The notes below the pieces were generated by a model. The model was not told where the DNA came from, searched no databases, and worked only from the letters and a program-made list of their open reading frames with translations. This document shows positions 14,892-52,638 of a DNA stretch of 64,000 nt, in pieces (the first letter of the stretch is position 1; every line of letters starts with the position of its first letter). The position numbers and the translations under genes were made by a program. This DNA is from a virus: the IMG/VR virus record IMGVR_UViG_3300009593_002680; one strand, written 5' to 3'.

Positions 14892-16163
14892 ATGGCAGAC
14901 AATAAAGATAAAGAAAATTTATCGTGTGGTTTTTGCGGTAAAAAACGTTTCGAAGTTAAAAAACTTATTGCAGGACCTAATTCATACATTTGCAATGAGT
15001 GTATCAGTATAAGTTATAAAATTATTAATGATGAAGATATAACAGAAGACCTAGACTTAGAAGTAATACCAACTCCAGAAGAAATTAAAGCACATTTAGA
15101 TGAAACAGTTATTAGTCAAGAATATGCTAAAGAAGTTTTAAGTGTATGTGCATATAATCATTATAAAAAGATATATCACGATACAGATGATATAAAATTA
15201 GAAAAAAGTAATGTGATAATGATGGGTGCAACAGGCACAGGTAAAACATTACTAGCACAAACATTAGCAGAAATGCTTAAAGTTCCTTTTACAATAGCAG
15301 ATGCTACAACATTAACTGAAGCAGGGTATGTTGGGGAAGATGTTGAAAGTGTATTAGAACGTTTATTGAATGCTTGTGATTGGAATGTTGATTTAGCACA
15401 AAAGGGTATAGTGTTCATAGATGAGATAGATAAAAAGGCCCGTAGCAAAGAATCTAACGCCTCTACAAAGGATATTAGTGGCGAAGGTGTACAACAAGCA
15501 CTCTTAAGATTAATAGAAGGCACAACTGTTAAGGTTACAACAAATGGTTCAAAACGTATGGATCAATTTATAGACTTTGATACATCTAATGTATTGTTTA
15601 TATGTAGTGGTGCATTTGTAGGACTAGAAAGCAAAATAAAAAGCAGAATGAAAGTTAAGAAAGTTGGCTTTAACTCAGATATATCAAAAAACAAAGTTAG
15701 TAAAGTAAAATGGCAAGACCATATAGACCAAGAAGACCTAATTAGTTATGGATTAATACCTGAACTAGTGGGTAGGCTACCTAATTTAATTACGTTAGAC
15801 GAGCTCACAGAGGACGACATGGTATCAATATTAAACAATTCTAAAGCAAGTGTTATACCACAAGTTAAGAAGTTGTTAGAATATGATGAAATAGAATTAA
15901 GTTTTGAACAGCAATATATTAAAGACATAGCCAAGATGGCATCTAAAACAAAAACAGGTGCTAGAGGACTAAAATCTATAGTAGAGAACAGTTTACATAA
16001 TATTATGTTCAGAGCGCCTAAACTCAAGGAAAATGGAGTTAAGAACATTTTCTTTAAACAATACCCAACAAAATCGGTTGACAGTTATCCTACATTAGTA
16101 TATACTAACGGTAATGAAAAAACTGATTCAGAATACAAAATTAAACTACGAGGTAAAAGTTGA
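14892..16163 (+). CDS. clpX: ATP-dependent Clp protease ATPase subunit ClpX
   Basis: C4 zinc finger, Walker [15 protein letters not shown] pore loop, [18 protein letters not shown] loop, GARGL. Confidence 0.95.
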
Positions 16164-26943: not shown

Positions 26944-27243
26944 ATGACACAAGAAGCAGTTAAAACTAGAGCAACAACAGAATTGCGTTATCCTCCAAGG
27001 TTTGATGTAATTGTTTTTAATGACGATTACACTCCAGTTGATTTTGTAATTAGACTGTTAGTTGAGATATTCAATAAAAACGTTGAAACTGCTAAAGAAG
27101 TTACAATGCAAATACACGAACATGGACAAGCAGTAGCAGGTTCATATAATTGGGAAATTGCAGAGCAAAAAACCACAGAAGCAATAGCAACTGCTAGAGC
27201 AAGTGGTCACCCTTTACAACTTAAAACCAAACAGGTAGAATGA
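26944..27243 (+). CDS. clpS: N-degron adaptor ClpS
   Basis: [14 protein letters not shown]...[12 protein letters not shown]...EIAEQK...HPL. Start moved to 26944. Confidence 0.92.
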
Positions 27244-28700
27244 GCATAGATAATCTTGAGAAAAATAAGAAATACCAAGAAGGGTTCGTAACTGAATTAG
27301 AGAGCGAATCTTTTCCAGCGGGTCTTGATGAACAAGTTGTAAGAAATTTAAGTGCAATTAAAAATGAGCCCGAATGGTTATTGGAGTTTAGATTAAAAGC
27401 ATTTAAAAGATGGGAGTCTATGTCGGAACCAGAATGGGGAGAACTAGATTACGAACCCGTTGACTACCAAGCATTAAGTTATCACTCTGCACCAAAGAAA
27501 TTTGACAAAGATGAAATACCACCAGAGATATTTGAAACATTTGAAAAGTTAGGTGTACCATTACATGAACGTGATGCATTATTAGGCTTAGATACAGAAA
27601 AGCCAAAACCAGATAACCTTATTCCAACAGTAGCCGTTGACGCAGTATTTGATAGTGTTAGTGTTGCTACAACATTTAAAGCAGAACTAGAAAAACATGG
27701 TATTGTATTTTGCAGTATCAGTGAAGCAGTACAGGATCATCCTGAACTAGTTAAAAAATATTTAGGTAGTGTGATACCTTACACAGACAATTACTTTGCT
27801 ACACTGAACTCTGCTGTATTCTCAGACGGTACCTTTTGCTATATACCTAAGGGTGTAACATGCCCAATGGAACTCAATACATATTTTAGAATAAATGCTA
27901 GAAACACAGGACAGTTTGAACGTACACTTATTATAGCAGACGAAGATAGTTATGTAAGTTACTTAGAAGGTTGTACTGCTCCAGCATATGATGAGAATAC
28001 ATTACATGCCGCCTGTGTAGAATTAATTACATTAGATAATGCAGAAATAAAATATTCCACAGTACAAAATTGGTACCCAGGAGATGAAGATGGAGTAGGT
28101 GGAGTATATAACTTTGTAACAAAACGTGCAAAGTGTGAAGGCAAGAACAGTAAAGTTAGTTGGACTCAAGTAGAAACAGGAAGTGCAATTACATCGAAAT
28201 ACCCTAGTTGTATTTTAAAAGGAGAAGGTAGTGTAGGAGAATTTTTTAGTGTTGCAGTTACAAAAGGCAAACAACAAGCAGACACAGGCACTAAAATGAT
28301 ACACTTAGGAAAGGATACCAAAAGCACCATTATATCCAAAGGCATAAGTTTTGGAGATAGTACAAATACATATAGAGGTGCAGTAAAAATAAATCCGGGT
28401 GCCAATGATGCATCTAATTATACAAAGTGTGATAGTTTAATGCTACAAGACAGTAGGGCATTAACTATACCATATGTTACAAGTCAAAATGATACTGCAA
28501 CTGTAGAGCATGAAGCAAGTGCAGGAAAAATAAGTGAAGAACAAATGTATTACTTGGCAACAAGAGGTTTTAGTGAGGATGATGCGATGAATTTAGTAGT
28601 AAATGGATTCTGTAAAGATGTGTTTCAAAAACTACCATTAGAATTTGCCGCTGAAGCCAATAAACTATTGAGTATAACACTAGAAGGTGCCGTAGGATAA
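27240..28700 (+). CDS. sufB: Fe-S cluster assembly scaffold SufB
   Basis: [44 protein letters not shown] and EHEAS motifs. Confidence 0.97.
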
Positions 28701-28703
28701 TCG

Positions 28704-28732
28704 TTGACATTAATTACCAAAGGTAGTATAAT
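28704..28732 (+). promoter_or_regulatory. Internal sigma70 promoter for sufC, leaderless geometry
   Basis: TTGACA-N17-TATAAT-6 nt-ATG. Confidence 0.8.
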
Positions 28733-28738
28733 ACGCAG

Positions 28739-29434
28739 ATGTTAGAATTAAAAGACTATTCAGTTAATCCTATACTTGAAGGTATAAACATTGAGTTTGA
28801 CGTAGGTCGAACTTATATTGTTATGGGTGCTAATGGAGTAGGTAAAAGTACATTGTTGCATAGTATTATGGGAAGACCTGATTTAGATGTAAAAGGTACA
28901 CTTAAACTTAATGGTCAAGATATCAGTGAACTTGAAGTAGATGAAAGAGCAAACCTAGGAATGTTTGTAGGGTTCCAAGCACCAACAAGTGTTCCTGGAT
29001 TAAGTAACTTTCAATTTATGAAACAAGCATTAAACACTGAAGGTAAAGATATTAGAGAAACATTAGAAAAATTCAAAGCATTAACACATACTTTAGGATT
29101 GCCTGAAGGTTGGGACAAGCGAAACTTAAACACAGATGCTAGTGGTGGTGAGAAAAAGAAAAATGAGTTAATACAAATGAGCATGTTGCCTACAAAGTTA
29201 GCCATGTTAGATGAACCAGACAGTGGTTTAGATGTTGATGGTATTAAAGCATTATCAAAACAATTGAATGAATGGAGAACAGCCGACAATACACTTATTG
29301 TTGTAACACACTACGAAAAACTTATAGAAAGTCTAGATCCTGATGCAATTCTTGTGTTAAAGAAAGACCACATAGTTGGTGGTGATAAAACGTTAGCACA
29401 GAAAATATTTGCAGAAGGGTTTGATAGTGTTTAA
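28739..29434 (+). CDS. sufC: Fe-S assembly ATPase SufC
   Basis: GANGVGKST, SGGEKKKNE, LDEPDSGLDVD and VVTHY motifs. Confidence 0.93.
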   Translation: MLELKDYSVNPILEGINIEFDVGRTYIVMGANGVGKSTLLHSIMGRPDLDVKGTLKLNGQDISELEVDERANLGMFVGFQAPTSVPGLSNFQFMKQALNTEGKDIRETLEKFKALTHTLGLPEGWDKRNLNTDASGGEKKKNELIQMSMLPTKLAMLDEPDSGLDVDGIKALSKQLNEWRTADNTLIVVTHYEKLIESLDPDAILVLKKDHIVGGDKTLAQKIFAEGFDSV

Positions 29435-30704
29435 AAATTTATACAGTTCAAATATATTAACAAAACAAAATGGATTTGAAAGTTTTTATAAACTTGAAGA
29501 CATCCTCGATTTTGTAACATCTCCGATATACTTAGAAGAATTAGAAAATTCTGAATACAAGAAAAAGGTTCCAGGGTTACATAAACATTATGTAGACAAT
29601 TTATATTACCTACGTGAAATAGGTTTACCTTCTAATAAAAACGAACAATTTAATTTTAGTAATATTAATAAATTAAAAAACATAGATATTTTAAATACTG
29701 AATCGAGAACTATTAGTGGCGTAGATGATTTAGTAAAGTATGAATATCTAGCAACTGAGAAAAATACAGTAGTTATAACAGATGGTCATATATTAAGTAG
29801 TACAGACGTTAGTACAAAGAAACCATTTAATGTACAAATACTAGATAACATAAAATATAACAAACAAAAGCAAGATGAGTATGTTAAAATTATTGAACAT
29901 ACAAATGATTTTAGAAACTTAACATACGCATTATCAACTTTTCCTAATATAATAATTTTTCCTTCGGGAAGTAAAGATAACTTTTATAAGAATCCATTTA
30001 CTATTGAATATGTTAATGGTACTGATGATCCTGTATTACAAGCAAACACTAGTATAGTTGATATACAATATAATACAAAAGTTAAATTAAGAGAACGTGT
30101 AAAAAGTCTTGCTGGACAAATGAACTATGTAACATACATTGTAAGAGAAGATGCAGAGTTAGAAATTGTTAGAAACTCAAAAGACTTAGGTGGTTGGACA
30201 TTGTTTGATAGTAGGTTTGTTTGTCACCCAGGTAGTAAAGTTACAGTAAAGTTTAAGAACGAAGGTAGTCAATATTCACAAGAAAATTTTTACTTTAAAT
30301 GTAGTAGTCATGTTGAAGTAGATTTAGTTGGTAGAAACAATATTAAAAAAGGAAATGATTATCATCAGTTTGTACAAGTAAAAAGTCAAAACGATAGCAA
30401 CAAAAGTGTAATAGATATAAAAAATGTTGGTAACGAAAATGCCAATACAAGTTTTATAGGAAAGTATGATGTTAGTCCATTTAGTATAGGGTTCGATGGA
30501 CAGATGAGTAATGAGAATTTAATGCTAACAAAAAATGTTAAAATGCATACTCGTCCAATATTGGATATTCATACCAAAGAAATTGAATGCTCACATGGTT
30601 GCACGATAAGTAATATTAATAAGGACCATTTGTACTATCTGCAAAGTAGAGGATTTAGCAGACAAAAAGCAAATGACATTTTAGTGGACAGTTTCCTATG
30701 TTAA
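29409..30704 (+). CDS. sufD: SufD-like Fe-S assembly protein (divergent N-terminus)
   Basis: C-terminal MHTRPILDI..EIECSHGCTI...YLQSRG; lies between sufC and sufS. Real start may be the GTG at 29427. Confidence 0.85.
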   Translation: MQKGLIVFKNLYSSNILTKQNGFESFYKLEDILDFVTSPIYLEELENSEYKKKVPGLHKHYVDNLYYLREIGLPSNKNEQFNFSNINKLKNIDILNTESRTISGVDDLVKYEYLATEKNTVVITDGHILSSTDVSTKKPFNVQILDNIKYNKQKQDEYVKIIEHTNDFRNLTYALSTFPNIIIFPSGSKDNFYKNPFTIEYVNGTDDPVLQANTSIVDIQYNTKVKLRERVKSLAGQMNYVTYIVREDAELEIVRNSKDLGGWTLFDSRFVCHPGSKVTVKFKNEGSQYSQENFYFKCSSHVEVDLVGRNNIKKGNDYHQFVQVKSQNDSNKSVIDIKNVGNENANTSFIGKYDVSPFSIGFDGQMSNENLMLTKNVKMHTRPILDIHTKEIECSHGCTISNINKDHLYYLQSRGFSRQKANDILVDSFLC

Positions 30705-31930
30705 AAGCATACAAAAAAGCAAAATCAATAAAACAAATACGAGCATGTTTTCCTGCTCTAGCATATAGTGATATAACTTACTTAGATAATGCGGCTAGTA
30801 CTCAAACAGTAGATAGTAGTATTAAAGCAGTAAGTGATTACCATTATAACTACAGAGCAAATGTGCATAGGGGTGATTTTAAAACAAGTCATATTGCAAC
30901 AGACTTATATGATGAAGCAAGAGAAGAAGTTGCAAAGTTATTAAATTGTGAAGCATACGAAATTGCATTTACAAGTGGTACTACAGAAAGTTTAAATATG
31001 ATTGCAGAGCATTATGCTAATGATGATAGACAAGTTATTATAACACACTTAGAACATCACAGTAATAGTTTACCTTGGATGAAGCAAGGACGTAATGCAG
31101 AAAATGGCGGACTACTTGTTTGCAAAGCAACTGATGTTGGTGATGTTAGTATGCAGGATTGGGAAGAAATATGTTCTGAAAATCCTGGAAGTATTGTATC
31201 ATTTTTAACACAAAGTAATTTAAGTGGACACATGTTAAAATGGAACCAAATGGTCCATATAGCAAAAGAACATGATTGTGAAGTTATACTTGATGCTTGT
31301 CAAAGTATTGCACACCAACCAATAGATACTAAAATGAATAACATAGATTGGATTGCTTTTAGTGGACATAAAATGTTTGCTAGTACAGGAGTTGGTGTAT
31401 TATTTCACAGAGGTGGATTTGCAGATATAGTATCACGTTTAGGTGGTGGTACAGTTAGTTATGTAGATTATGATAAAGGATATACATTAAACAATGATGT
31501 TAGTCAAGTAGAATCAGGAACACCTAATATTGCAGGAGTACATAGTATTGGTGCCGCGGCTAAATGGATTCAAGAAATAGGATATAAAGAGATACAAGAA
31601 TGTGAAGCAGAATTTTTCTATATGCTTAAAGATAAAGGTCTTTTTGATATAGAACAGTTAAAACTAATTGGCGATCCGTACCCTAGAAGTGTTTTTAGTT
31701 TTGTTGTAGACCCAGAGTTAGATTACAATGCAAGTGATTTGGCTGGATTTTTAGACTTAACTGATGTATGTGTTAGAACAGGACACATGTGCGCCTATCC
31801 GGCAAGTATGAGATATAATCATTCAGGAAAAGGTATTTTTAGAGTTAGTGTTGCACCATACAATGATGAACACGATTGCGTTAAGTTAGTAGAGGGACTA
31901 TGGAAAGCGATAGAGAAACTGGAGAAGTAA
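30698..31930 (+). CDS. sufS: Group II cysteine desulfurase SufS
   Basis: YLDNAAST, EHHSN, FSGHKM (PLP Lys), ESGTPNIAG and VRTGHMCA (catalytic Cys). Confidence 0.92.
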   Translation: MLKAYKKAKSIKQIRACFPALAYSDITYLDNAASTQTVDSSIKAVSDYHYNYRANVHRGDFKTSHIATDLYDEAREEVAKLLNCEAYEIAFTSGTTESLNMIAEHYANDDRQVIITHLEHHSNSLPWMKQGRNAENGGLLVCKATDVGDVSMQDWEEICSENPGSIVSFLTQSNLSGHMLKWNQMVHIAKEHDCEVILDACQSIAHQPIDTKMNNIDWIAFSGHKMFASTGVGVLFHRGGFADIVSRLGGGTVSYVDYDKGYTLNNDVSQVESGTPNIAGVHSIGAAAKWIQEIGYKEIQECEAEFFYMLKDKGLFDIEQLKLIGDPYPRSVFSFVVDPELDYNASDLAGFLDLTDVCVRTGHMCAYPASMRYNHSGKGIFRVSVAPYNDEHDCVKLVEGLWKAIEKLEK

Positions 31931-36557: not shown

Positions 36558-37775
36558 ATGAAACTCGCTATCACCGGAGTGGGTATAGTCTCGCCTTTAG
36601 GCAATACACTTTCCGAGAATGTAGAAAACTTAAAGGCAATGCAGGTTCCTATTCAGGATTATAAACCTCAAGGTCATTTTAGTGATTGGATTTTAGAAGT
36701 AGAAAAAGCATTTCATTGCAATTATGAAGATGTTGACTTAGATGGCTTAATAGAAGCAAAGAATAAACGTTGGTTAGACCCTACTGTTATTACAAGTATG
36801 ATAGCAGTTGATGAAGCAGTACAGATGAGTGGTTTAAACTTTCCAAAGAATACACCAGTATTTGTAGGAACTATTAGAGGTGGTGCACCAAACCTAGCAA
36901 AGTATGGACAAATACTACATCAAAACAGACGTAAAGTACATCCACAGATATTATTAAGTAGTTCACATGAGTACGTTAGCAATCATGTAAGCAGTCATTA
37001 CAAATGGACTGGTGCAAGTATGGGTACTAGTGGAACATGCATTAGTGGAGTACAAGCATTAGACCTTGCTAGAAAGTATATGATGACAGAAGATTATGAT
37101 TGTGCTATTGTAGGTGCAACTGATTTTATGACTAGTTCAATGAGTACAATATACTTTCAATTGTTAGGTGCAATTAGTAAAGCAGGTAGAAGTGTACCTT
37201 GGGACGAAAGTAGAGATGGTTTTGTTATGGGAGAAGGAACAGTTTATCTAGTAGTTGAACCTTTAGAAAAAGCAAGAGAACGAGGGGCAAACAATATACG
37301 TTGGGTAGTAGATGGATTGGGTATTGCTAACGATGGTGCCCATGCTACCCAACCAGATTTAGAAGGCACTGGTGCCAGGATAGCAATAGATAAAGTATTT
37401 GAACAAGCAGGAACTACTGCTAGTGATTACAATGTATTAAATGCACATGCTACTAGTACACCATTTGGTGACCCTGTGGAATATAACGTGTTGAAAGATT
37501 ATTTCTCAGAGGGAAGTCACTTATACGGCAATAAAGGTCAAGTGGGCCATTTAATGGGTGCTAGTGGTTTAGCAGAAGTTGTATTAGGTGCAGAAGCAAT
37601 GAAGCAAGGATTTATACCAGCAAATGCTGGACTAGAAAAACCATTCACAGATGATGGTTATTTTGACTTATTAACACAACCAAAAGAACAAAAATACACA
37701 AGGATGTTTAAAACATCGTTTGGATTTGGCGGCAGAAGTGCGGCAGTGAGTGTAGTAGATGAAAGAGAAGTTTAA
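36558..37775 (+). CDS. fabF: Beta-ketoacyl-ACP synthase (FabF/FabB family)
   Basis: TCISG (Cys), GFVMGEG, NAHATST (His), GHLMGASG (His) and SFGFGG. TAAATA+5 nt+ATG. Confidence 0.88.
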   Translation: MKLAITGVGIVSPLGNTLSENVENLKAMQVPIQDYKPQGHFSDWILEVEKAFHCNYEDVDLDGLIEAKNKRWLDPTVITSMIAVDEAVQMSGLNFPKNTPVFVGTIRGGAPNLAKYGQILHQNRRKVHPQILLSSSHEYVSNHVSSHYKWTGASMGTSGTCISGVQALDLARKYMMTEDYDCAIVGATDFMTSSMSTIYFQLLGAISKAGRSVPWDESRDGFVMGEGTVYLVVEPLEKARERGANNIRWVVDGLGIANDGAHATQPDLEGTGARIAIDKVFEQAGTTASDYNVLNAHATSTPFGDPVEYNVLKDYFSEGSHLYGNKGQVGHLMGASGLAEVVLGAEAMKQGFIPANAGLEKPFTDDGYFDLLTQPKEQKYTRMFKTSFGFGGRSAAVSVVDEREV

Positions 37776-49489: not shown

Positions 49490-49687
49490 ATGTCTATCAT
49501 CACAGATGAAGTGAATGGACAAAAATCTTTCTTTGTAAATGCAAGAACTTCTATCAAGGAGTTTAAAGACAAATACTGCCCTGATGGACATACGTGTGAT
49601 AATATCCTCACGTTTGGGCTCTTGGTTGGTTGTTTTGTTTTCATGTATATTGCAATGAGACCGATTTTTTATCCTTTCGGCTTCTAA
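49490..49687 (+). CDS. 65-aa single-TM protein with CxxxxxC
   Basis: AGGAG RBS, YCPDGHTCD, C-terminal TM. Start moved from 49454. Confidence 0.7.
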   Translation: MSIITDEVNGQKSFFVNARTSIKEFKDKYCPDGHTCDNILTFGLLVGCFVFMYIAMRPIFYPFGF

Positions 49688-49724
49688 AAGAAATCAGAGA
49701 ACAACACCGTTCTCCCTTAACATT

Positions 49725-49752
49725 AAAAGCACTCTTCGGAGTGCTTTTTTTT
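49725..49752. terminator. Rho-independent terminator with a cUUCGg loop
   Basis: AAAAGCACTC-TTCG-GAGTGCTTTTTTTT. Confidence 0.92.
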
Positions 49753-49755
49753 AGG

Positions 49756-49784
49756 TTGACATTAGACCTTGTTTCAACTATAAT
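49756..49784 (+). promoter_or_regulatory. sigma70 promoter, leaderless geometry
   Basis: TTGACA-N17-TATAAT-7 nt-ATG. Confidence 0.8.
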
Positions 49785-49791
49785 ATACTTT

Positions 49792-49983
49792 ATGAAACAT
49801 CTAATCAAGTGGATGAAAATATCTGCGTTTATTAACTTTTACCTATGCGTAATTATGACTTTTGTTTTAATTGCGTTAATTGTTGATATAGGATTAGATA
49901 GTTATTGGCACGGTACAGAGTTTAAAGCAAAACTACTTAATGAAGTAGAACAAATTGAATGTACAACAACAGGTTCTTGTTAG
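49792..49983 (+). CDS. Small membrane protein
   Basis: Start moved to 49792 because the track start spans a terminator. One TM. Confidence 0.65.
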   Translation: MKHLIKWMKISAFINFYLCVIMTFVLIALIVDIGLDSYWHGTEFKAKLLNEVEQIECTTTGSC

Positions 49984-50285
49984 TCAATAACAAAATAGAC
50001 TTATATGTACGTTCTGTACAAATTAAACTATTCGTAATAGGTATTATACATTTAATAGCATTTGCATACTTTTACCCTACATTATTCTATTATACGGTAG
50101 GTACACCGTTTATGATATTCGTAATCTTTTATATATGTTTCTGTCATCATTCCTTGATGGAAGAGTATCAAAGACAAGAAATGTTCTATTATAAATTAAT
50201 GTTAAACAAACATCCTGAACATGCAGAAGCATTAACATTAATGATTTTCGATTCTACACAAGATAATCAGATAAAATCCTGGTAG
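49959..50285 (+). CDS. 2-TM membrane protein
   Basis: 108 aa with two hydrophobic helices. Confidence 0.65.
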   Translation: MYNNRFLLVNNKIDLYVRSVQIKLFVIGIIHLIAFAYFYPTLFYYTVGTPFMIFVIFYICFCHHSLMEEYQRQEMFYYKLMLNKHPEHAEALTLMIFDSTQDNQIKSW

Positions 50286-50344
50286 CAAAGCATAAATATA
50301 TACTGTTATATAGCAGATGGCTTATAACCTAACTAGGAGAAGAT

Positions 50345-50623
50345 ATGAATAAACTTTATTCACTTCTTGGTATCCTTGGTTTAGTATTATTACCTTCATG
50401 TGCCTCAGTTGGAGCAGTTATTGAAGGAGGAAAAGATTTCACAACAGGCGTGATTGATAGTTCTGTAAGAGGTGTTGCTACAGTTAGTTCAGCAGTCTTA
50501 ACAGATGTATCAGAAATAACATCAACAGCGGCGAAAGTCACGAGTGGTGTAGTAGAAACTGTTAGTGAAGAAATAGATAAACAAACCGACGAATTACAAG
50601 AAGACACTCCAAAAAAGGATTAA
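50345..50623 (+). CDS. Lipoprotein with 11-mer amphipathic repeats
   Basis: Lipobox LLPS-C19, AGGAG RBS, upstream TAAATA. Confidence 0.8.
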   Translation: MNKLYSLLGILGLVLLPSCASVGAVIEGGKDFTTGVIDSSVRGVATVSSAVLTDVSEITSTAAKVTSGVVETVSEEIDKQTDELQEDTPKKD

Positions 50624-50727
50624 GTCTGTTCTCTAATAGCAAAGAGAACAAGGACAACTCTAGCGATATAAAACTTTTAATCAAACAGATTAAAAAGTAT
50701 TGCGAAGAGAATCCTAAGGAGTGCTAA
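50611..50727 (+). other. Candidate programmed -1 frameshift site and 36-aa -1-frame extension
   Basis: In-phase A AAA AAG (50611-50617), a hairpin starting 6-9 nt later, and a -1 frame with no start codon open to TAA 50725-50727. Confidence 0.7.
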
Positions 50728-50741
50728 CTACATAACTACGG

Positions 50742-50770
50742 AAAAAGGGTCAGCAATTGGCCCTTTTTTT
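50742..50770 (+). terminator. Rho-independent terminator
   Basis: AAAAAGGGTCA/TGGCCCTTTTT stem with a U tract, just after the -1 frame stop. Confidence 0.85.
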
Positions 50771-50842
50771 GTGCGTAAAAAATCAACATTAATAGATAAA
50801 TACTGCTATAATAAAAATTATTATAGTTATGTAGGAGTAATT

Positions 50843-51634
50843 ATGGGATGGTTAGCAGACTGTTCCGAAAGCGAACGAGCGTCAGTTCTGGCGAAGTTGG
50901 CTGGTAGGGCATATCTCAGTGAGCAAGAGTTAGCAAAGGCTCAAAAACAAATTAAAATGAAACGTAAGAAAGCGGTTCTAGTTAAGGATGGTGATGCAGA
51001 AGCATGGGTGTTTTTTACTAGAGATGATGGTATTATTGTTTCATGCAGAGGCACAGAACCAACAAAGTTTAGTGACATACTAGCAGATTTAAAAACATAT
51101 CCAATTAGACACCCACGTAATGGTAGAGTACATCACGGATTTTATGAGTACACACAATTAATATTCGATGAAGTCTTAGAAATAGTTAAAGCAAACAGAA
51201 AAAACAACGAAAATGTTTATGTTGTTGGACACAGTTTAGGTGGAGCAATGGCTGTACTAGTTGCAGAACAATTAACACACGAAGGTATTCCAGTGAAGGA
51301 ACTTAGAACTTATGGGCAACCAAGAGTAGGTAATAGAAGATTCCGTCAGCACTTAGAAGGTTGCGATATTGGTGCATACATTCGTTATGTTAATAACAAC
51401 GATATAGTACCAAAGGTACCACCAAGTTGGTTATTGTTTGTTCATGGCGGAAGGCTTATGTATATCAATCATCATGGGGTAATAAGAACTAGTACTTTCT
51501 GGCAAAGAGTCAAAGACCAATTTAGAGGTATTTGGGCGGCGGCTAAAAGGTATAAATTCTTTGATTTTGTTTCGGATCATGCTATGCCACTTTATATAGA
51601 ACATTGCCAATCAATTGCTAAAGACGATAAATAG
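50843..51634 (+). CDS. Class 3 lipase (alpha/beta hydrolase)
   Basis: RGTE, VHHGF, GHSLGG, TYGQPRVG, NNDIVP and DH motifs. Start moved to the ATG after AGGAG. Confidence 0.9.
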   Translation: MGWLADCSESERASVLAKLAGRAYLSEQELAKAQKQIKMKRKKAVLVKDGDAEAWVFFTRDDGIIVSCRGTEPTKFSDILADLKTYPIRHPRNGRVHHGFYEYTQLIFDEVLEIVKANRKNNENVYVVGHSLGGAMAVLVAEQLTHEGIPVKELRTYGQPRVGNRRFRQHLEGCDIGAYIRYVNNNDIVPKVPPSWLLFVHGGRLMYINHHGVIRTSTFWQRVKDQFRGIWAAAKRYKFFDFVSDHAMPLYIEHCQSIAKDDK

Positions 51635-51655: not shown

Positions 51656-51820
51656 ATGTTAGATTATATTAAATCAAGAATAAAAGAAAGGACTAGTTGG
51701 GACGGTGGTGTTATCATTGCTGGTTCACTAGCAATAATCCTGTTCGGTGGCATTGTTAAAATTGCGGCATGGGCCGGTTTAGCATATGGCATTTGGACAA
51801 TAGTTAAGAAAGAGGACTAA
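51656..51820 (+). CDS. 54-aa 2-TM membrane protein (holin-like topology)
   Basis: AGGAG RBS, TAAATA, KERTSWDG motif. Below the track cutoff. Confidence 0.7.
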   Translation: MLDYIKSRIKERTSWDGGVIIAGSLAIILFGGIVKIAAWAGLAYGIWTIVKKED

Positions 51821-52251: not shown

Positions 52252-52638
52252 ATGAAACTAGATGAAGTACTAGAAGCAGTTAAGCGAAAGAAACGTCTAG
52301 ACGCAGAAGCCGGAGGCGGTGGAGGCGGTGGTGCTGGAGCAGGCGGAGGAGCAGGCTCAGGTGCTGGAGCAGGAACTGGCGGTGGTGCTGGTCCTGGTAA
52401 TAGTTCAGGCGGTGGTGCTCATGGAAATTCAAGTGGAGGCGGCGGGTCTGCAGGCAGTGGCGACACTGGTTCCGCTGATTCCACACCATCAGATACAGGT
52501 AAATCAACCCAAAGTTATTTCGTACCTTGGGGTTGGGCACCTGCCAAATTAAAGAAAAAGAAAAAGAAGAAAAAGAAAACATCAAACACTGGTGCTCCAA
52601 AGGCGCCAAAAGGTGACCCATATAAAGACCATAGATAA
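52252..52638 (+). CDS. Gly-rich protein with a poly-Lys tract
   Basis: MKLDEVLEA..., G-rich core and KKKKKKKK. Confidence 0.65.
   Translation: MKLDEVLEAVKRKKRLDAEAGGGGGGGAGAGGGAGSGAGAGTGGGAGPGNSSGGGAHGNSSGGGGSAGSGDTGSADSTPSDTGKSTQSYFVPWGWAPAKLKKKKKKKKKTSNTGAPKAPKGDPYKDHR

What the first reader, a model, noticed from the sequence alone, without database searches (positions are those of the whole stretch)
50345..50770. Candidate programmed -1 frameshift giving two isoforms of a phage lipoprotein
Seen in sequence: the lipoprotein gene (lipobox LLPS-C19) ends CCA AAA AAG GAT TAA. This places A AAA AAG (50611-50617) in the correct X XXY YYZ phase. A perfect 8-bp hairpin follows (TGTTCTCT 50627-34 / AGAGAACA 50643-50); it can be extended by GTC/GAC to start 6 nt after the heptamer. 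The -1 frame reads GLSLFSNSKENKDNSSDIKLLIKQIKKYCEENPKEC and stops at 50725-27, just before the terminator. That frame is closed by TAA at 50578-80 and has no ATG/GTG/TTG, so it cannot start on its own. Established knowledge: A AAA AAG plus a 3' stem-loop is the strongest bacterial -1 signal (dnaX, IS3-family elements), and phage frameshifts are best known in tail chaperone and capsid genes. Inference: a 92-aa and a 127-aa lipoprotein are made, and the long form carries a C-x6-C periplasmic tail. I do not know of this arrangement in a phage lipoprotein.
Basis: partly seen in the sequence, partly recalled or inferred. Interest (0 to 1): 0.82.

Follow-up and report, generated by a model that had tools for sequence, protein, structure and literature searches.

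The report
Conserved -1 frameshift in phage lipoprotein
A small lipoprotein gene of uncultured marine T4-like phages ends in a textbook ribosome slip site that very probably makes a short and a 35-residue-longer protein from one mRNA; the mechanism is known, but I found no published report of it in this gene family.

Summary
The 92-aa lipoprotein gene (50345-50623) ends CCA AAA AAG GAT TAA. A AAA AAG (50611-50617) is in X XXY YYZ phase and a hairpin starts 6 nt later. The -1 frame stays open for 36 more codons, to TAA 50725-27, just before a terminator-like hairpin.

One sequence alone could be chance. Relatives from marine viral metagenomes settle it:
- **Slip site kept:** 45 of 47 distinct tail-bearing sequences keep A AAA AAG or G GGA AAG in phase, 0-1 codon before the stop. 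Both are among the three best E. coli -1 motifs.
- **Tail is coding:** in 46 of 47 it lies in the -1 frame, and it is under purifying selection. Its invariant Y-C-x3-P-x2-C motif is written with synonymous codons.
- **Co-loss:** two groups of homologs without the tail also lack the heptamer.
- **No fusion:** no genuine in-frame fusion appears among 1.8 billion protein representatives.
- **Hairpin:** it covaries.

Two lipoprotein isoforms (92 and 127 aa as precursors) are therefore very probably made by -1 ribosomal frameshifting. The protein's function is unknown.

I found no publication describing this. This scan had already reached the same conclusion on relatives in other genomes. Reads could not be checked, and nothing has been tested experimentally.

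The parts
50335..50339 (+). Shine-Dalgarno AGGAG, 5 nt before the ATG
   Evidence: Read from the sequence.
50345..50623 (+). Lipoprotein gene, zero frame. It encodes the 92-aa short isoform, ending ...TPKKD.
   Evidence: ORF list. There are 143 homologs at 55-100% identity in marine metagenomes and 109 viral-contig relatives, of which 80 loci were kept.
50345..50401 (+). Signal peptide with lipobox L-P-S-C. Cys19 (TGT, 50399-50401) would be the lipidated first residue of the mature protein. Ala follows at +2.
   Evidence: Translation. Cys19 and Ala20 are invariant, and the C-A-S-V-G-A-V-I-E-G-G-K stretch is invariant or nearly so, in 34 homologs.
50611..50617 (+). Slippery heptamer A AAA AAG in X XXY YYZ phase (CC[A AAA AAG])
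   Evidence: The heptamer is in phase in 41 distinct homologous sequences and is replaced by G GGA AAG in 4. The codon before it always ends in the required base: CCA, GAA, GCA, TCA; GAG or GCG.
50621..50623 (+). Zero-frame stop TAA, one codon after the heptamer
   Evidence: In all homologs with a heptamer, the stop lies 0 or 1 codon after it.
50624..50655 (+). Stem-loop 6 nt after the heptamer: GTC + TGTTCTCT, loop AATAGCAA, then AGAGAACA + AG bulge + GAC
   Evidence: z -2.9. Covariation across 12 relatives: 93% of cells are paired, 3 pairs carry compensatory changes, and 0 of 500 shuffles reach the covariation score. Other clades carry different stems at the same place.
50617..50727 (+). -1 frame extension. 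It has 36 codons (GLSLFSNSKENKDNSSDIKLLIKQIKKYCEENPKEC) plus TAA, and is reached only by slipping at the heptamer. The long isoform is 127 aa.
   Evidence: There is no start codon in this frame. pN/pS is 0.23-0.38 in this frame, against 0.58-2.3 in the other two.
50665..50724 (+). Conserved core of the tail: an amphipathic helix (DIKLLIKQIKKY) followed by the C-x6-C loop (CEENPKEC)
   Evidence: Y, C, P and C are invariant in 15 aligned tails, in 34 distinct tails, and use synonymous codons. The AF2 model of the tail has a helix at residues 17-33 and mean pLDDT 95-97 over the last 18 residues.
50742..50770 (+). Terminator-like hairpin (A5-GGGTCA / TGGCCC-T7) 15 nt after the -1 frame stop
   Evidence: RNA fold. 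It was not flagged by the consensus scan. In relatives the equivalent hairpin plus T-run also follows the tail's stop. In tail-less relatives it follows the zero-frame stop directly.

Best explanation
The gene is decoded in two ways. Most ribosomes read CCA AAA AAG GAT and stop at TAA, giving a 92-aa prelipoprotein (74 aa after cleavage at Cys19).

A fraction pause with the two Lys-tRNAs on AAA AAG, held up by the stem-loop that starts 6 nt downstream. They slip back one base onto A AAA AA. They then read GGA onward for 36 codons and make a 127-aa prelipoprotein (109 aa mature).

Both forms share the signal peptide and lipid anchor, so the extra tail is exported. The tail is a variable linker, an amphipathic helix and a Y-C-x3-P-x2-C loop, and its two cysteines can be oxidised outside the cytoplasm. 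The slip sets a fixed ratio of short to long form.

What is shown: the signal, its phase, its conservation, and protein-level selection on the -1 frame.

What is inferred: that slippage is ribosomal, that both isoforms accumulate, that the protein sits in the outer membrane (Ala at +2), and that the cysteines form a disulfide.

The biological role is unknown. My guess is an envelope protein whose minor long form carries a binding or cross-linking module.
For: 1. **Signal in the window.** The heptamer is in phase, the hairpin lies 6 nt downstream, and the -1 frame is open for 36 codons without any start codon.
2. **Conservation across relatives.** Among 92 loci with a readable gene end, the window included, 73 loci (41 distinct) have A AAA AAG plus an open -1 tail. 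Another 9 loci (4 distinct) have G GGA AAG plus the tail. Four further loci fetched afterwards also have A AAA AAG plus the tail.
3. **The two heptamers are top motifs.** PMC4066793 lists C_CCA_AAG, G_GGA_AAG and A_AAA_AAG as the most efficient -1 motifs in E. coli. A switch between two of them in the same phase is what selection for slipperiness predicts.
4. **Synonymous sites are constrained.** The codon before the heptamer always ends in A, or in G for G GGA AAG. It is CCA, GAA or GCA, and GAG or GCG. For Ser it is TCA, the one Ser codon of six that fits; I predicted this before looking.
5. **Co-loss.** Seven loci (4 distinct, in two groups with different C-terminal endings) lack both heptamer and tail. 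L024 is 90% identical in protein to tail-bearing L018, yet reads CCT AAA CAG. DNA homology ends at the stop and a terminator follows directly.
6. **The tail is a protein.** pN/pS is 0.23-0.38 in the -1 frame, against 0.58-2.3 in the other frames. Third positions vary most. The invariant Y, C, P and C are written with TAT/TAC, TGT/TGC and CCA/CCT/CCC.
7. **Frame relation is kept despite indels.** Tails of 33-40 codons in the main clades, and about 58 in the distant L081, are all in -1.
8. **No conserved start.** Five distinct tails have no ATG/GTG/TTG at all.
9. **No real fused form.** None of 134 called homologs carries the motif in frame. A profile of the tail against 1.84 billion representatives found only fragments of the -1 ORF and P0138. 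P0138 comes from a Pilon-polished contig with 6 indel sites, mostly in homopolymers, in about 470 nt.
10. **Hairpin.** Compensatory changes occur in the window's clade. At least five unrelated stem sequences sit at the same place, 5-7 nt after the heptamer, with z -2.4 to -5.1 in most.
11. **Transcription unit.** Terminator-like hairpins follow the tail's stop rather than the zero-frame stop.
Against: - There is no experimental evidence: no reads, RNA, ribosome profiling or peptides.
- The host is unknown, so motif efficiencies measured in E. coli are an extrapolation.
- Two exceptions exist. L091 has A CAA AAG (only the A_AAG tetramer is left) with an intact -1 tail and hairpin. L092 has a deletion that removes heptamer and hairpin and leaves the tail in the +1 frame.
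- In the second clade ('...EKK*') the downstream structure is weak (z -1.4 to -2.4). In the distant L081 no hairpin lies near the site.
- The window has no SD-like upstream stimulator.
- Tail-less homologs show that the long form is dispensable in some phages.
- The loci are related, so counts of sequences overstate the number of independent events.
Confidence: 0.85

Rival explanations
1. Transcriptional slippage: RNA polymerase adds one A in the A-run, so a fraction of mRNAs encode the long form in a single frame. The protein outcome would be the same as with ribosomal slippage.
For: The run is A6 in the window and A7 in the '...EKK' and '...EKKD' clades. One inserted A would give exactly the same long protein.
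Against: The conserved feature is the phased X XXY YYZ pattern, not run length. Four distinct sequences use G GGA AAG, with runs of only 3. The base before the heptamer and the position of the zero-frame stop are constrained in phase. A covarying hairpin 6 nt downstream fits a ribosomal stimulator. From established knowledge, productive slippage by bacterial RNA polymerase needs runs of about 9 or more A/T.
Confidence: 0.05
2. The tail is a separate small gene translated on its own, by a non-canonical start or by termination-reinitiation after the lipoprotein stop. It gives a free peptide of about 20-35 aa and no long lipoprotein.
For: Many relatives have an ATG or TTG inside the tail frame. 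A gene caller annotated a 49-aa GTG-started product in L081.
Against: There is no ATG/GTG/TTG at all in the window's tail or in four other distinct tails. Where starts exist, they sit at different places and cut into the conserved helix. The variable linker between heptamer and core never contains a stop, and the tail is in -1 in 46 of 47 distinct sequences despite indels. This rival gives no reason for the heptamer to be kept, or to be lost together with the tail. A free peptide would have no signal peptide, so the conserved Cys pair would sit in the reducing cytoplasm.
Confidence: 0.04
3. No recoding takes place. The 100 nt after the stop is a structured 3' UTR or small RNA, and the open -1 frame is a by-product.
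For: The region 50605-50780 folds far better than shuffles (z -8.5), and several hairpins are visible.
Against: Much of that z-score comes from the terminator hairpin. There is no Rfam match. Substitution patterns are those of a protein in the -1 frame, and the invariant residues use synonymous codons. Only the first hairpin is conserved, and the core of the tail is conserved as amino acids rather than as pairs.
Confidence: 0.03
4. Assembly or sequencing error in the A-run: the real gene is one continuous 127-codon ORF.
For: Homopolymers are error-prone. One long-read contig (L093) shows exactly such an artefact, in the opposite direction.
Against: The same out-of-frame arrangement is found in 45 distinct sequences from many independent short-read assemblies (JGI, ENA, Tara, Logan) with run lengths A6, A7 and G3A3. 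No clean in-frame version exists in 1.84 billion representatives.
Confidence: 0.01

Closest known systems
E. coli dnaX tau/gamma -1 frameshift
   Same: It uses the same heptamer, A AAA AAG, read by the shift-prone Lys-tRNA, with a stem-loop a few nt downstream. Two products share their N-terminal part at a set ratio.
   Different: In dnaX the shifted frame stops almost at once, so frameshifting makes the shorter protein. Here it makes the longer one. dnaX also has an upstream SD-like stimulator, which is absent in the window. The dnaX details come from established knowledge and were not tested here.
IS3-family (IS911, IS3, IS150) OrfA/OrfAB frameshift
   Same: A AAA AAG or G GGA AAG lies near the end of the upstream ORF, followed by a downstream hairpin or pseudoknot. 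The frameshift product is the C-terminally extended fusion. The zero-frame stop lies close after the site. PMC4066793 tested these motifs with IS911 and IS3 stimulators.
   Different: The extension here is a 36-codon tail with no start of its own, not a whole second gene. The gene is an exported lipoprotein, not a transposase.
Phage T7 gene 10A/10B and lambda G/GT
   Same: These are phage genes in which a -1 slip just before the stop gives a minor, C-terminally extended isoform at fixed stoichiometry. Lambda G/GT uses G GGA AAG, the alternative heptamer found in this family. This is established knowledge.
   Different: Those are virion capsid or tail-assembly proteins made in the cytoplasm. 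This is a small secreted lipoprotein of unknown role, and there is no sequence relationship.
T4 PseT.2 o-spanin (the protein, not the recoding)
   Same: It is a small outer-membrane lipoprotein of a T4-type phage with a predicted C-terminal helix and two periplasmic cysteines near the C-terminus that are needed for function (PMC6139136). The long isoform here has the same general layout.
   Different: No sequence match to any spanin family was found in PHROGs. No recognisable i-spanin gene lies beside it. The Cys spacing is C-x6-C, whereas PseT.2 has Cys at positions 87 and 98. The cysteines exist only in the frameshifted form. This is a resemblance only.

Membership tests
Programmed -1 ribosomal frameshift site (X XXY YYZ type, as in dnaX / IS3 family) | Slippery heptamer X XXY YYZ in phase with the upstream ORF | tested here: met
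   A AAA AAG at 50611-50617 is in phase. It is in phase in 45 of 47 distinct tail-bearing relatives, as A AAA AAG or G GGA AAG.
Programmed -1 ribosomal frameshift site (X XXY YYZ type, as in dnaX / IS3 family) | The -1 frame is open from the site, encodes a conserved polypeptide and cannot start on its own | tested here: met
   The frame has 36 codons and no ATG/GTG/TTG. pN/pS is 0.23-0.38 in the -1 frame. Invariant motif Y-C-x3-P-x2-C.
Programmed -1 ribosomal frameshift site (X XXY YYZ type, as in dnaX / IS3 family) | Stimulatory RNA structure about 5-9 nt downstream | tested here: met
   The window's hairpin starts 6 nt after the heptamer (z -2.9). Compensatory changes occur in its clade. 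Different stems sit at the same place in other subclades. The structure is weak in the '...EKK' clade and absent near the site in L081.
Programmed -1 ribosomal frameshift site (X XXY YYZ type, as in dnaX / IS3 family) | Signal and extension gained or lost together; no in-frame fused relatives | tested here: met
   All 4 distinct tail-less sequences lack the heptamer. The only apparent fusion is a long-read indel artefact. Exceptions are L091 (degenerate heptamer) and L092 (deletion).
Programmed -1 ribosomal frameshift site (X XXY YYZ type, as in dnaX / IS3 family) | Frameshift product demonstrated (reporter, western blot, mass spectrometry) | not testable with these tools
   The phage is uncultured.
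Bacterial lipoprotein (signal peptidase II substrate) | Signal peptide with positive n-region and hydrophobic core, ending in a lipobox with an invariant Cys | tested here: met
   MNK, then a hydrophobic stretch, then L-P-S-C19. Cys is invariant in 34 homologs. Lipidation itself is not testable here.
Two-component spanin, o-spanin subunit | Membership of a known o-spanin sequence family | tested here: not met
   PHROGs gives no spanin family, even at E up to 1. Pfam gives nothing.
Two-component spanin, o-spanin subunit | Adjacent, overlapping or embedding i-spanin gene (type II membrane protein with a periplasmic coiled coil) | tested here: inconclusive
   The upstream neighbours are small membrane proteins of unknown family. 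None looks like an i-spanin, and only 64 kb of the genome was seen.
Transcriptional slippage site | Long homopolymer run (about 9 or more A/T) | tested here: not met
   Runs are A6 in the window, A7 in some relatives and G3A3 in others.

The most novel reading that the evidence does not exclude
The frameshift sets a fixed ratio between a plain outer-membrane-anchored helix and a minor long form. The long form's C-terminal helix plus disulfide loop would tether or cross-link it to a partner in the envelope, in a spanin-like or Braun-lipoprotein-like 'free and bound' pair. That would be the first case of recoding used to set the stoichiometry of a secreted envelope protein during phage infection.
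Probability: 0.15. Interest if true: 0.75.

Novelty: new member of a known kind. Interest (0 to 1): 0.6.

Why it matters
Known phage frameshifts sit mostly in tail-chaperone, capsid and a few replication genes. This would add a secreted lipoprotein to the list.

It also offers an unusually clean natural data set:
- heptamer switching between two top motifs;
- co-loss of signal and tail in near-identical relatives;
- a covarying stimulator that lies inside the sequence it helps to decode.

The family is widespread in uncultured marine T4-like phages. It is always annotated as a roughly 90-aa hypothetical protein, so the long isoform is missing from every catalogue. The conserved helix plus Y-C-x3-P-x2-C module is a small, testable periplasmic motif of unknown function.

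Tried and rejected
- **Cultured phages:** blastn and tblastn against 50,697 phage records found nothing, so no cultured relative or existing annotation is available.
- **Cellular genomes:** no relative was found in 185,579 species genomes.
- **Own genome:** no whole genome is held for this window.
- **Rfam:** only sub-threshold chance matches.
- **Protein families:** Pfam and PHROGs give no family for the lipoprotein or the tail. The ESM Atlas gives only its own viral clusters plus a weak DUF6726 lead at 0.88, which I did not pursue.
- **AF2 of the short form:** one long helix at pLDDT 55. This is too poor for a fold search, so none was run.
- **RNAalifold on all subclades together:** I replaced it with per-sequence folds and a pair count within one subclade.
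- **Longer homologs:** P0011, P0037, P0050 and P0056 are N-terminal start-call artefacts, not fusions. P0044 is an error-laden sequence.
- **P0138:** it looked like an in-frame fusion, but comes from an indel-rich Pilon-polished contig.
- **Upstream SD-like stimulator:** a lead from earlier notes. It is absent in the window's clade and only a weak AGGA or GAGGA is present in part of the other clade.
- **Literature:** four full-text searches and four papers gave no report of a frameshift in a phage lipoprotein. Only the first 300,000 characters of the Atkins 2016 review were searchable.
- **Complex prediction:** not run, because I claim no specific binding partner.

Full report
**1. Observation**

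- The ORF 50345..50623 encodes a 92-aa protein. It has a signal peptide ending L-L-P-S-C19 and is preceded by AGGAG.
- It ends CCA AAA AAG GAT TAA, so A AAA AAG (50611-50617) is in X XXY YYZ phase.
- Six nt later a stem-loop forms: GTC+TGTTCTCT, then an 8-nt loop, then AGAGAACA+AG+GAC (50624-50655). Its MFE is -12 kcal/mol, z -2.9.
- The -1 frame is closed upstream by TAA at 50578-80 and has no ATG/GTG/TTG. It runs 36 codons beyond the slip to TAA at 50725-27.
- A strong hairpin with a U7 run follows at about 50742-50770. The simple consensus scan did not flag it as a terminator.

**2. Is it more than chance in one sequence?**

Not by itself.
- The window (34% G+C) holds 5 in-phase A AAA AAG among 86 gene-like ORFs.
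- By my own estimate, a 36-codon open frame has roughly a 6% chance at this composition.
- The other four sites are followed by -1 frames of only 3-9 codons, against 38 here.

The case therefore rests on comparison with relatives.

**3. Relatives**

The protein has 143 homologs at 55-100% identity, all from marine metagenomes and almost all 87-97 aa.
- IMG/VR gave 109 viral-contig relatives, of which 80 loci were kept. Look-ups by protein added 17 more loci.
- None is in cultured-phage records or in cellular genomes.
- Neighbouring genes in these loci include gp32-like and UvsX-like proteins, recognised from their translations.
- The window itself carries SufB/D/S, ClpX, FabF, a radical-SAM enzyme and a class-3 lipase.
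- Together these point to large, uncultured marine T4-like phages.

**4. The slip site is conserved and switches between top motifs**

Gene ends were tallied over 92 loci, the window included. The four loci added (read) come on top and also have A AAA AAG with a -1 tail.

| Gene end | Loci | Distinct sequences |
|---|---|---|
| A AAA AAG in phase, open -1 tail carrying [YFW]-C-x3-P-x2-C | 73 | 41 |
| G GGA AAG in phase, same tail | 9 | 4 |
| No heptamer, no tail | 7 | 4 |
| Exceptions (L091, L092) | 2 | 2 |

- PMC4066793 names C_CCA_AAG, G_GGA_AAG and A_AAA_AAG as the most efficient -1 motifs in E. coli.
- The codon before the heptamer always ends in the required base. It is CCA, GAA or GCA before A AAA AAG, and GAG or GCG before G GGA AAG.
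- For proteins ending ...SKKD and ...SKKE, I predicted TCA, the only Ser codon of six that fits. Both loci had it.
- The zero-frame stop always lies 0 or 1 codon after the heptamer.

**5. The tail is a protein read in the -1 frame**

- Thirty-four distinct tail sequences align with invariant Y, C, P and C (the same in 15 representatives). In the window's clade the motif is D-I-K-x-L-[IV]-x2-I-x2-Y-C-x2-N-P-x-E-C.
- Nei-Gojobori proportions give pN/pS 0.38 and 0.28 for the two clades in the -1 frame, and 0.23 for the core. The other two frames give 0.58-2.3. Third codon positions vary most.
- The invariant residues are encoded by TAT/TAC, TGT/TGC and CCA/CCT/CCC.
- Tail lengths differ (33-40 codons; about 58 in the distant L081), but 46 of 47 distinct tails are in -1.
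- Five distinct tails, the window's included, have no ATG/GTG/TTG at all.
- An AF2 model of the tail gives a confident helix followed by the Cys loop, with mean pLDDT 95-97 over the last 18 residues.

**6. Signal and tail are lost together**

- L024-26 and L028 (ending ...PKQD) and L085-87 (ending ...SKPE) lack both the heptamer and the tail. A terminator hairpin follows their stop directly.
- L024 is 90% identical in protein to tail-bearing L018. The DNA is alike up to the stop, but CCA AAA AAG has become CCT AAA CAG, and homology ends right after the stop.

**7. No fused forms**

- None of 134 called homologs has the motif in frame. The longer ones are start-call artefacts.
- A profile of the tail searched against 1.84 billion representatives gave 7 hits:
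  - four contig-edge fragments of the -1 ORF;
  - the GTG-called piece of L081;
  - a Sinimarinibacterium secreted protein with four repeats of the motif (see section 11);
  - P0138, an apparent fusion.
- P0138 comes from a Pilon-polished contig that differs from L002 at 6 indel sites, mostly in homopolymers, in about 470 nt. It is an artefact.

**8. The stimulator**

- In the window's clade a hairpin starts 5-7 nt after the heptamer in every sequence. Most have z between -2.4 and -5.1; one is weak (L018, z -0.9).
- At least five unrelated stem sequences occupy this place.
- Within the 12 sequences that share a register, 93% of cells pair and three pairs show compensatory changes, one of them with five pair types. 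No shuffle of 500 reaches the covariation score, and slid controls fall to 45-56% paired.
- By my own reading of alignment A5, the pairs at columns 18-39 and 24-33 join third codon positions of the -1 frame. If so, the stem is built from the wobble sites of the sequence it helps to decode.
- The peptide encoded by the stem region is not conserved between subclades (LSLFS... against VSHSD...), while the hairpin is.
- In the '...EKK' clade the structure is weaker (z -1.4 to -2.4). A weak SD-like AGGA or GAGGA lies 9-12 nt upstream in part of that clade. In L081 no hairpin is near the site.

**9. Exceptions**

- L091 has A CAA AAG with an intact hairpin and -1 tail. Only the A_AAG tetramer is left, and PMC4066793 counts Z_ZZN tetramers as a weaker class of frameshift motif.
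- L092 has a deletion that removes both heptamer and hairpin and puts the tail in the +1 frame. It is probably a defective variant or an assembly fault.

**10. Mechanism and rivals**

The best reading is tandem -1 slippage of the two Lys-tRNAs on A AAA AAG, helped by the hairpin. It would give a 92-aa and a 127-aa prelipoprotein.

| Rival | Why it is disfavoured |
|---|---|
| Transcriptional slippage | Would give the same protein, but the runs are A6, A7 or G3A3, and the constraints are in phase |
| Independent translation of the tail | Does not explain the missing starts, the always-open linker, the fixed frame relation or the co-loss |
| Pure RNA element | Contradicted by the codon-level pattern |
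| Homopolymer sequencing error | Excluded by dozens of independent assemblies |

**11. What the protein may do**

- The short form is predicted as one long helix at low confidence (pLDDT 55). It has strongly conserved ends: C-A-S-V-G-A-V-I-E-G-G-K, and Q-T-D-E-L-Q.
- Ala at +2 suggests outer-membrane sorting. This is an inference from the E. coli rule.
- The tail's Cys pair makes sense only outside the cytoplasm, which fits its being fused to an exported protein.
- The same [WY]-C-x2-N-P-x2-C-E unit is repeated four times in a Sinimarinibacterium hypothetical protein that appears to have a signal peptide. The match is weak (E 3e-4).
- The layout recalls the T4 o-spanin PseT.2: a lipoprotein with a C-terminal helix and two essential periplasmic cysteines (PMC6139136). 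No sequence match was found and no i-spanin partner is visible, so this is only a lead.

**12. Novelty**

- The mechanism is textbook.
- I found no report of it in a phage lipoprotein in PMC5009743 (first 300,000 characters), PMC4066793, PMC10885494 or the full-text searches.
- This scan had already flagged relatives in other genomes, and its follow-up agents reached the same verdict. I re-derived the evidence independently here.

Noticed in passing
L003:1145-3172 (also L002, L006, L014, L017, L021, L094): In many related phage loci the lipoprotein gene is followed by a secreted DUF5658-like protein of about 145-185 aa. After that comes a membrane protein of about 680 aa with a CHASE2 sensor domain and an adenylate/guanylate cyclase domain (Pfam E 1e-39 and 1e-19). 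A phage-encoded sensor cyclase beside this lipoprotein may hint at a shared envelope or signalling module.
   Followed up: partly
P0142 (Sinimarinibacterium flocculans hypothetical protein, 136 aa): A bacterial protein that appears to have a signal peptide carries four tandem copies of the unit [WY]-C-x2-[NH]-P-x2-C-E, which ends the phage tail. It has no Pfam family and no other homologs of similar length (74-238 aa). The motif may be an undescribed small periplasmic disulfide module.
   Followed up: partly
window 52252-52638 (+): A 128-aa ORF with a long Gly/Ala/Ser-rich stretch and a run of 11 lysines (an A-rich homopolymer-like tract). It could itself be prone to slippage or to assembly error.
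   Followed up: no
L091:291-700 and L092:100-480: Two natural variants of the frameshift cassette. L091 has a degenerate heptamer, A CAA AAG, but keeps the hairpin and the -1 tail. L092 has a deletion that removes heptamer and hairpin and leaves the tail in the +1 frame.
   Followed up: partly
window 49630-50285 (+): Two small membrane-protein genes lie just upstream of the lipoprotein and keep this position in several relatives (L001, L002, L011, L017, L055). The first ends in E-C-T-T-T-G-S-C in the window and in L011, another C-terminal Cys pair. No family was found.
   Followed up: partly
window 50771-51634 and 51656-51820 (+): In the window's closest relatives (L001, L011) the lipoprotein is followed by a class-3 lipase (Pfam E 2e-25) and a 54-aa single-pass membrane protein. 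In other clades the neighbours are different, so this pairing is not a fixed module.
   Followed up: partly
window 27240-31930, 14892-16163, 36558-37775: SufB, SufD-like, SufS, ClpX and a FabF-like ketoacyl synthase are encoded in the same window. This is an unusually rich set of host-like metabolic genes for a phage. Relatives carry IscU- and IscA-like genes beside the lipoprotein (L024, L055), recognised from their translations only.
   Followed up: no
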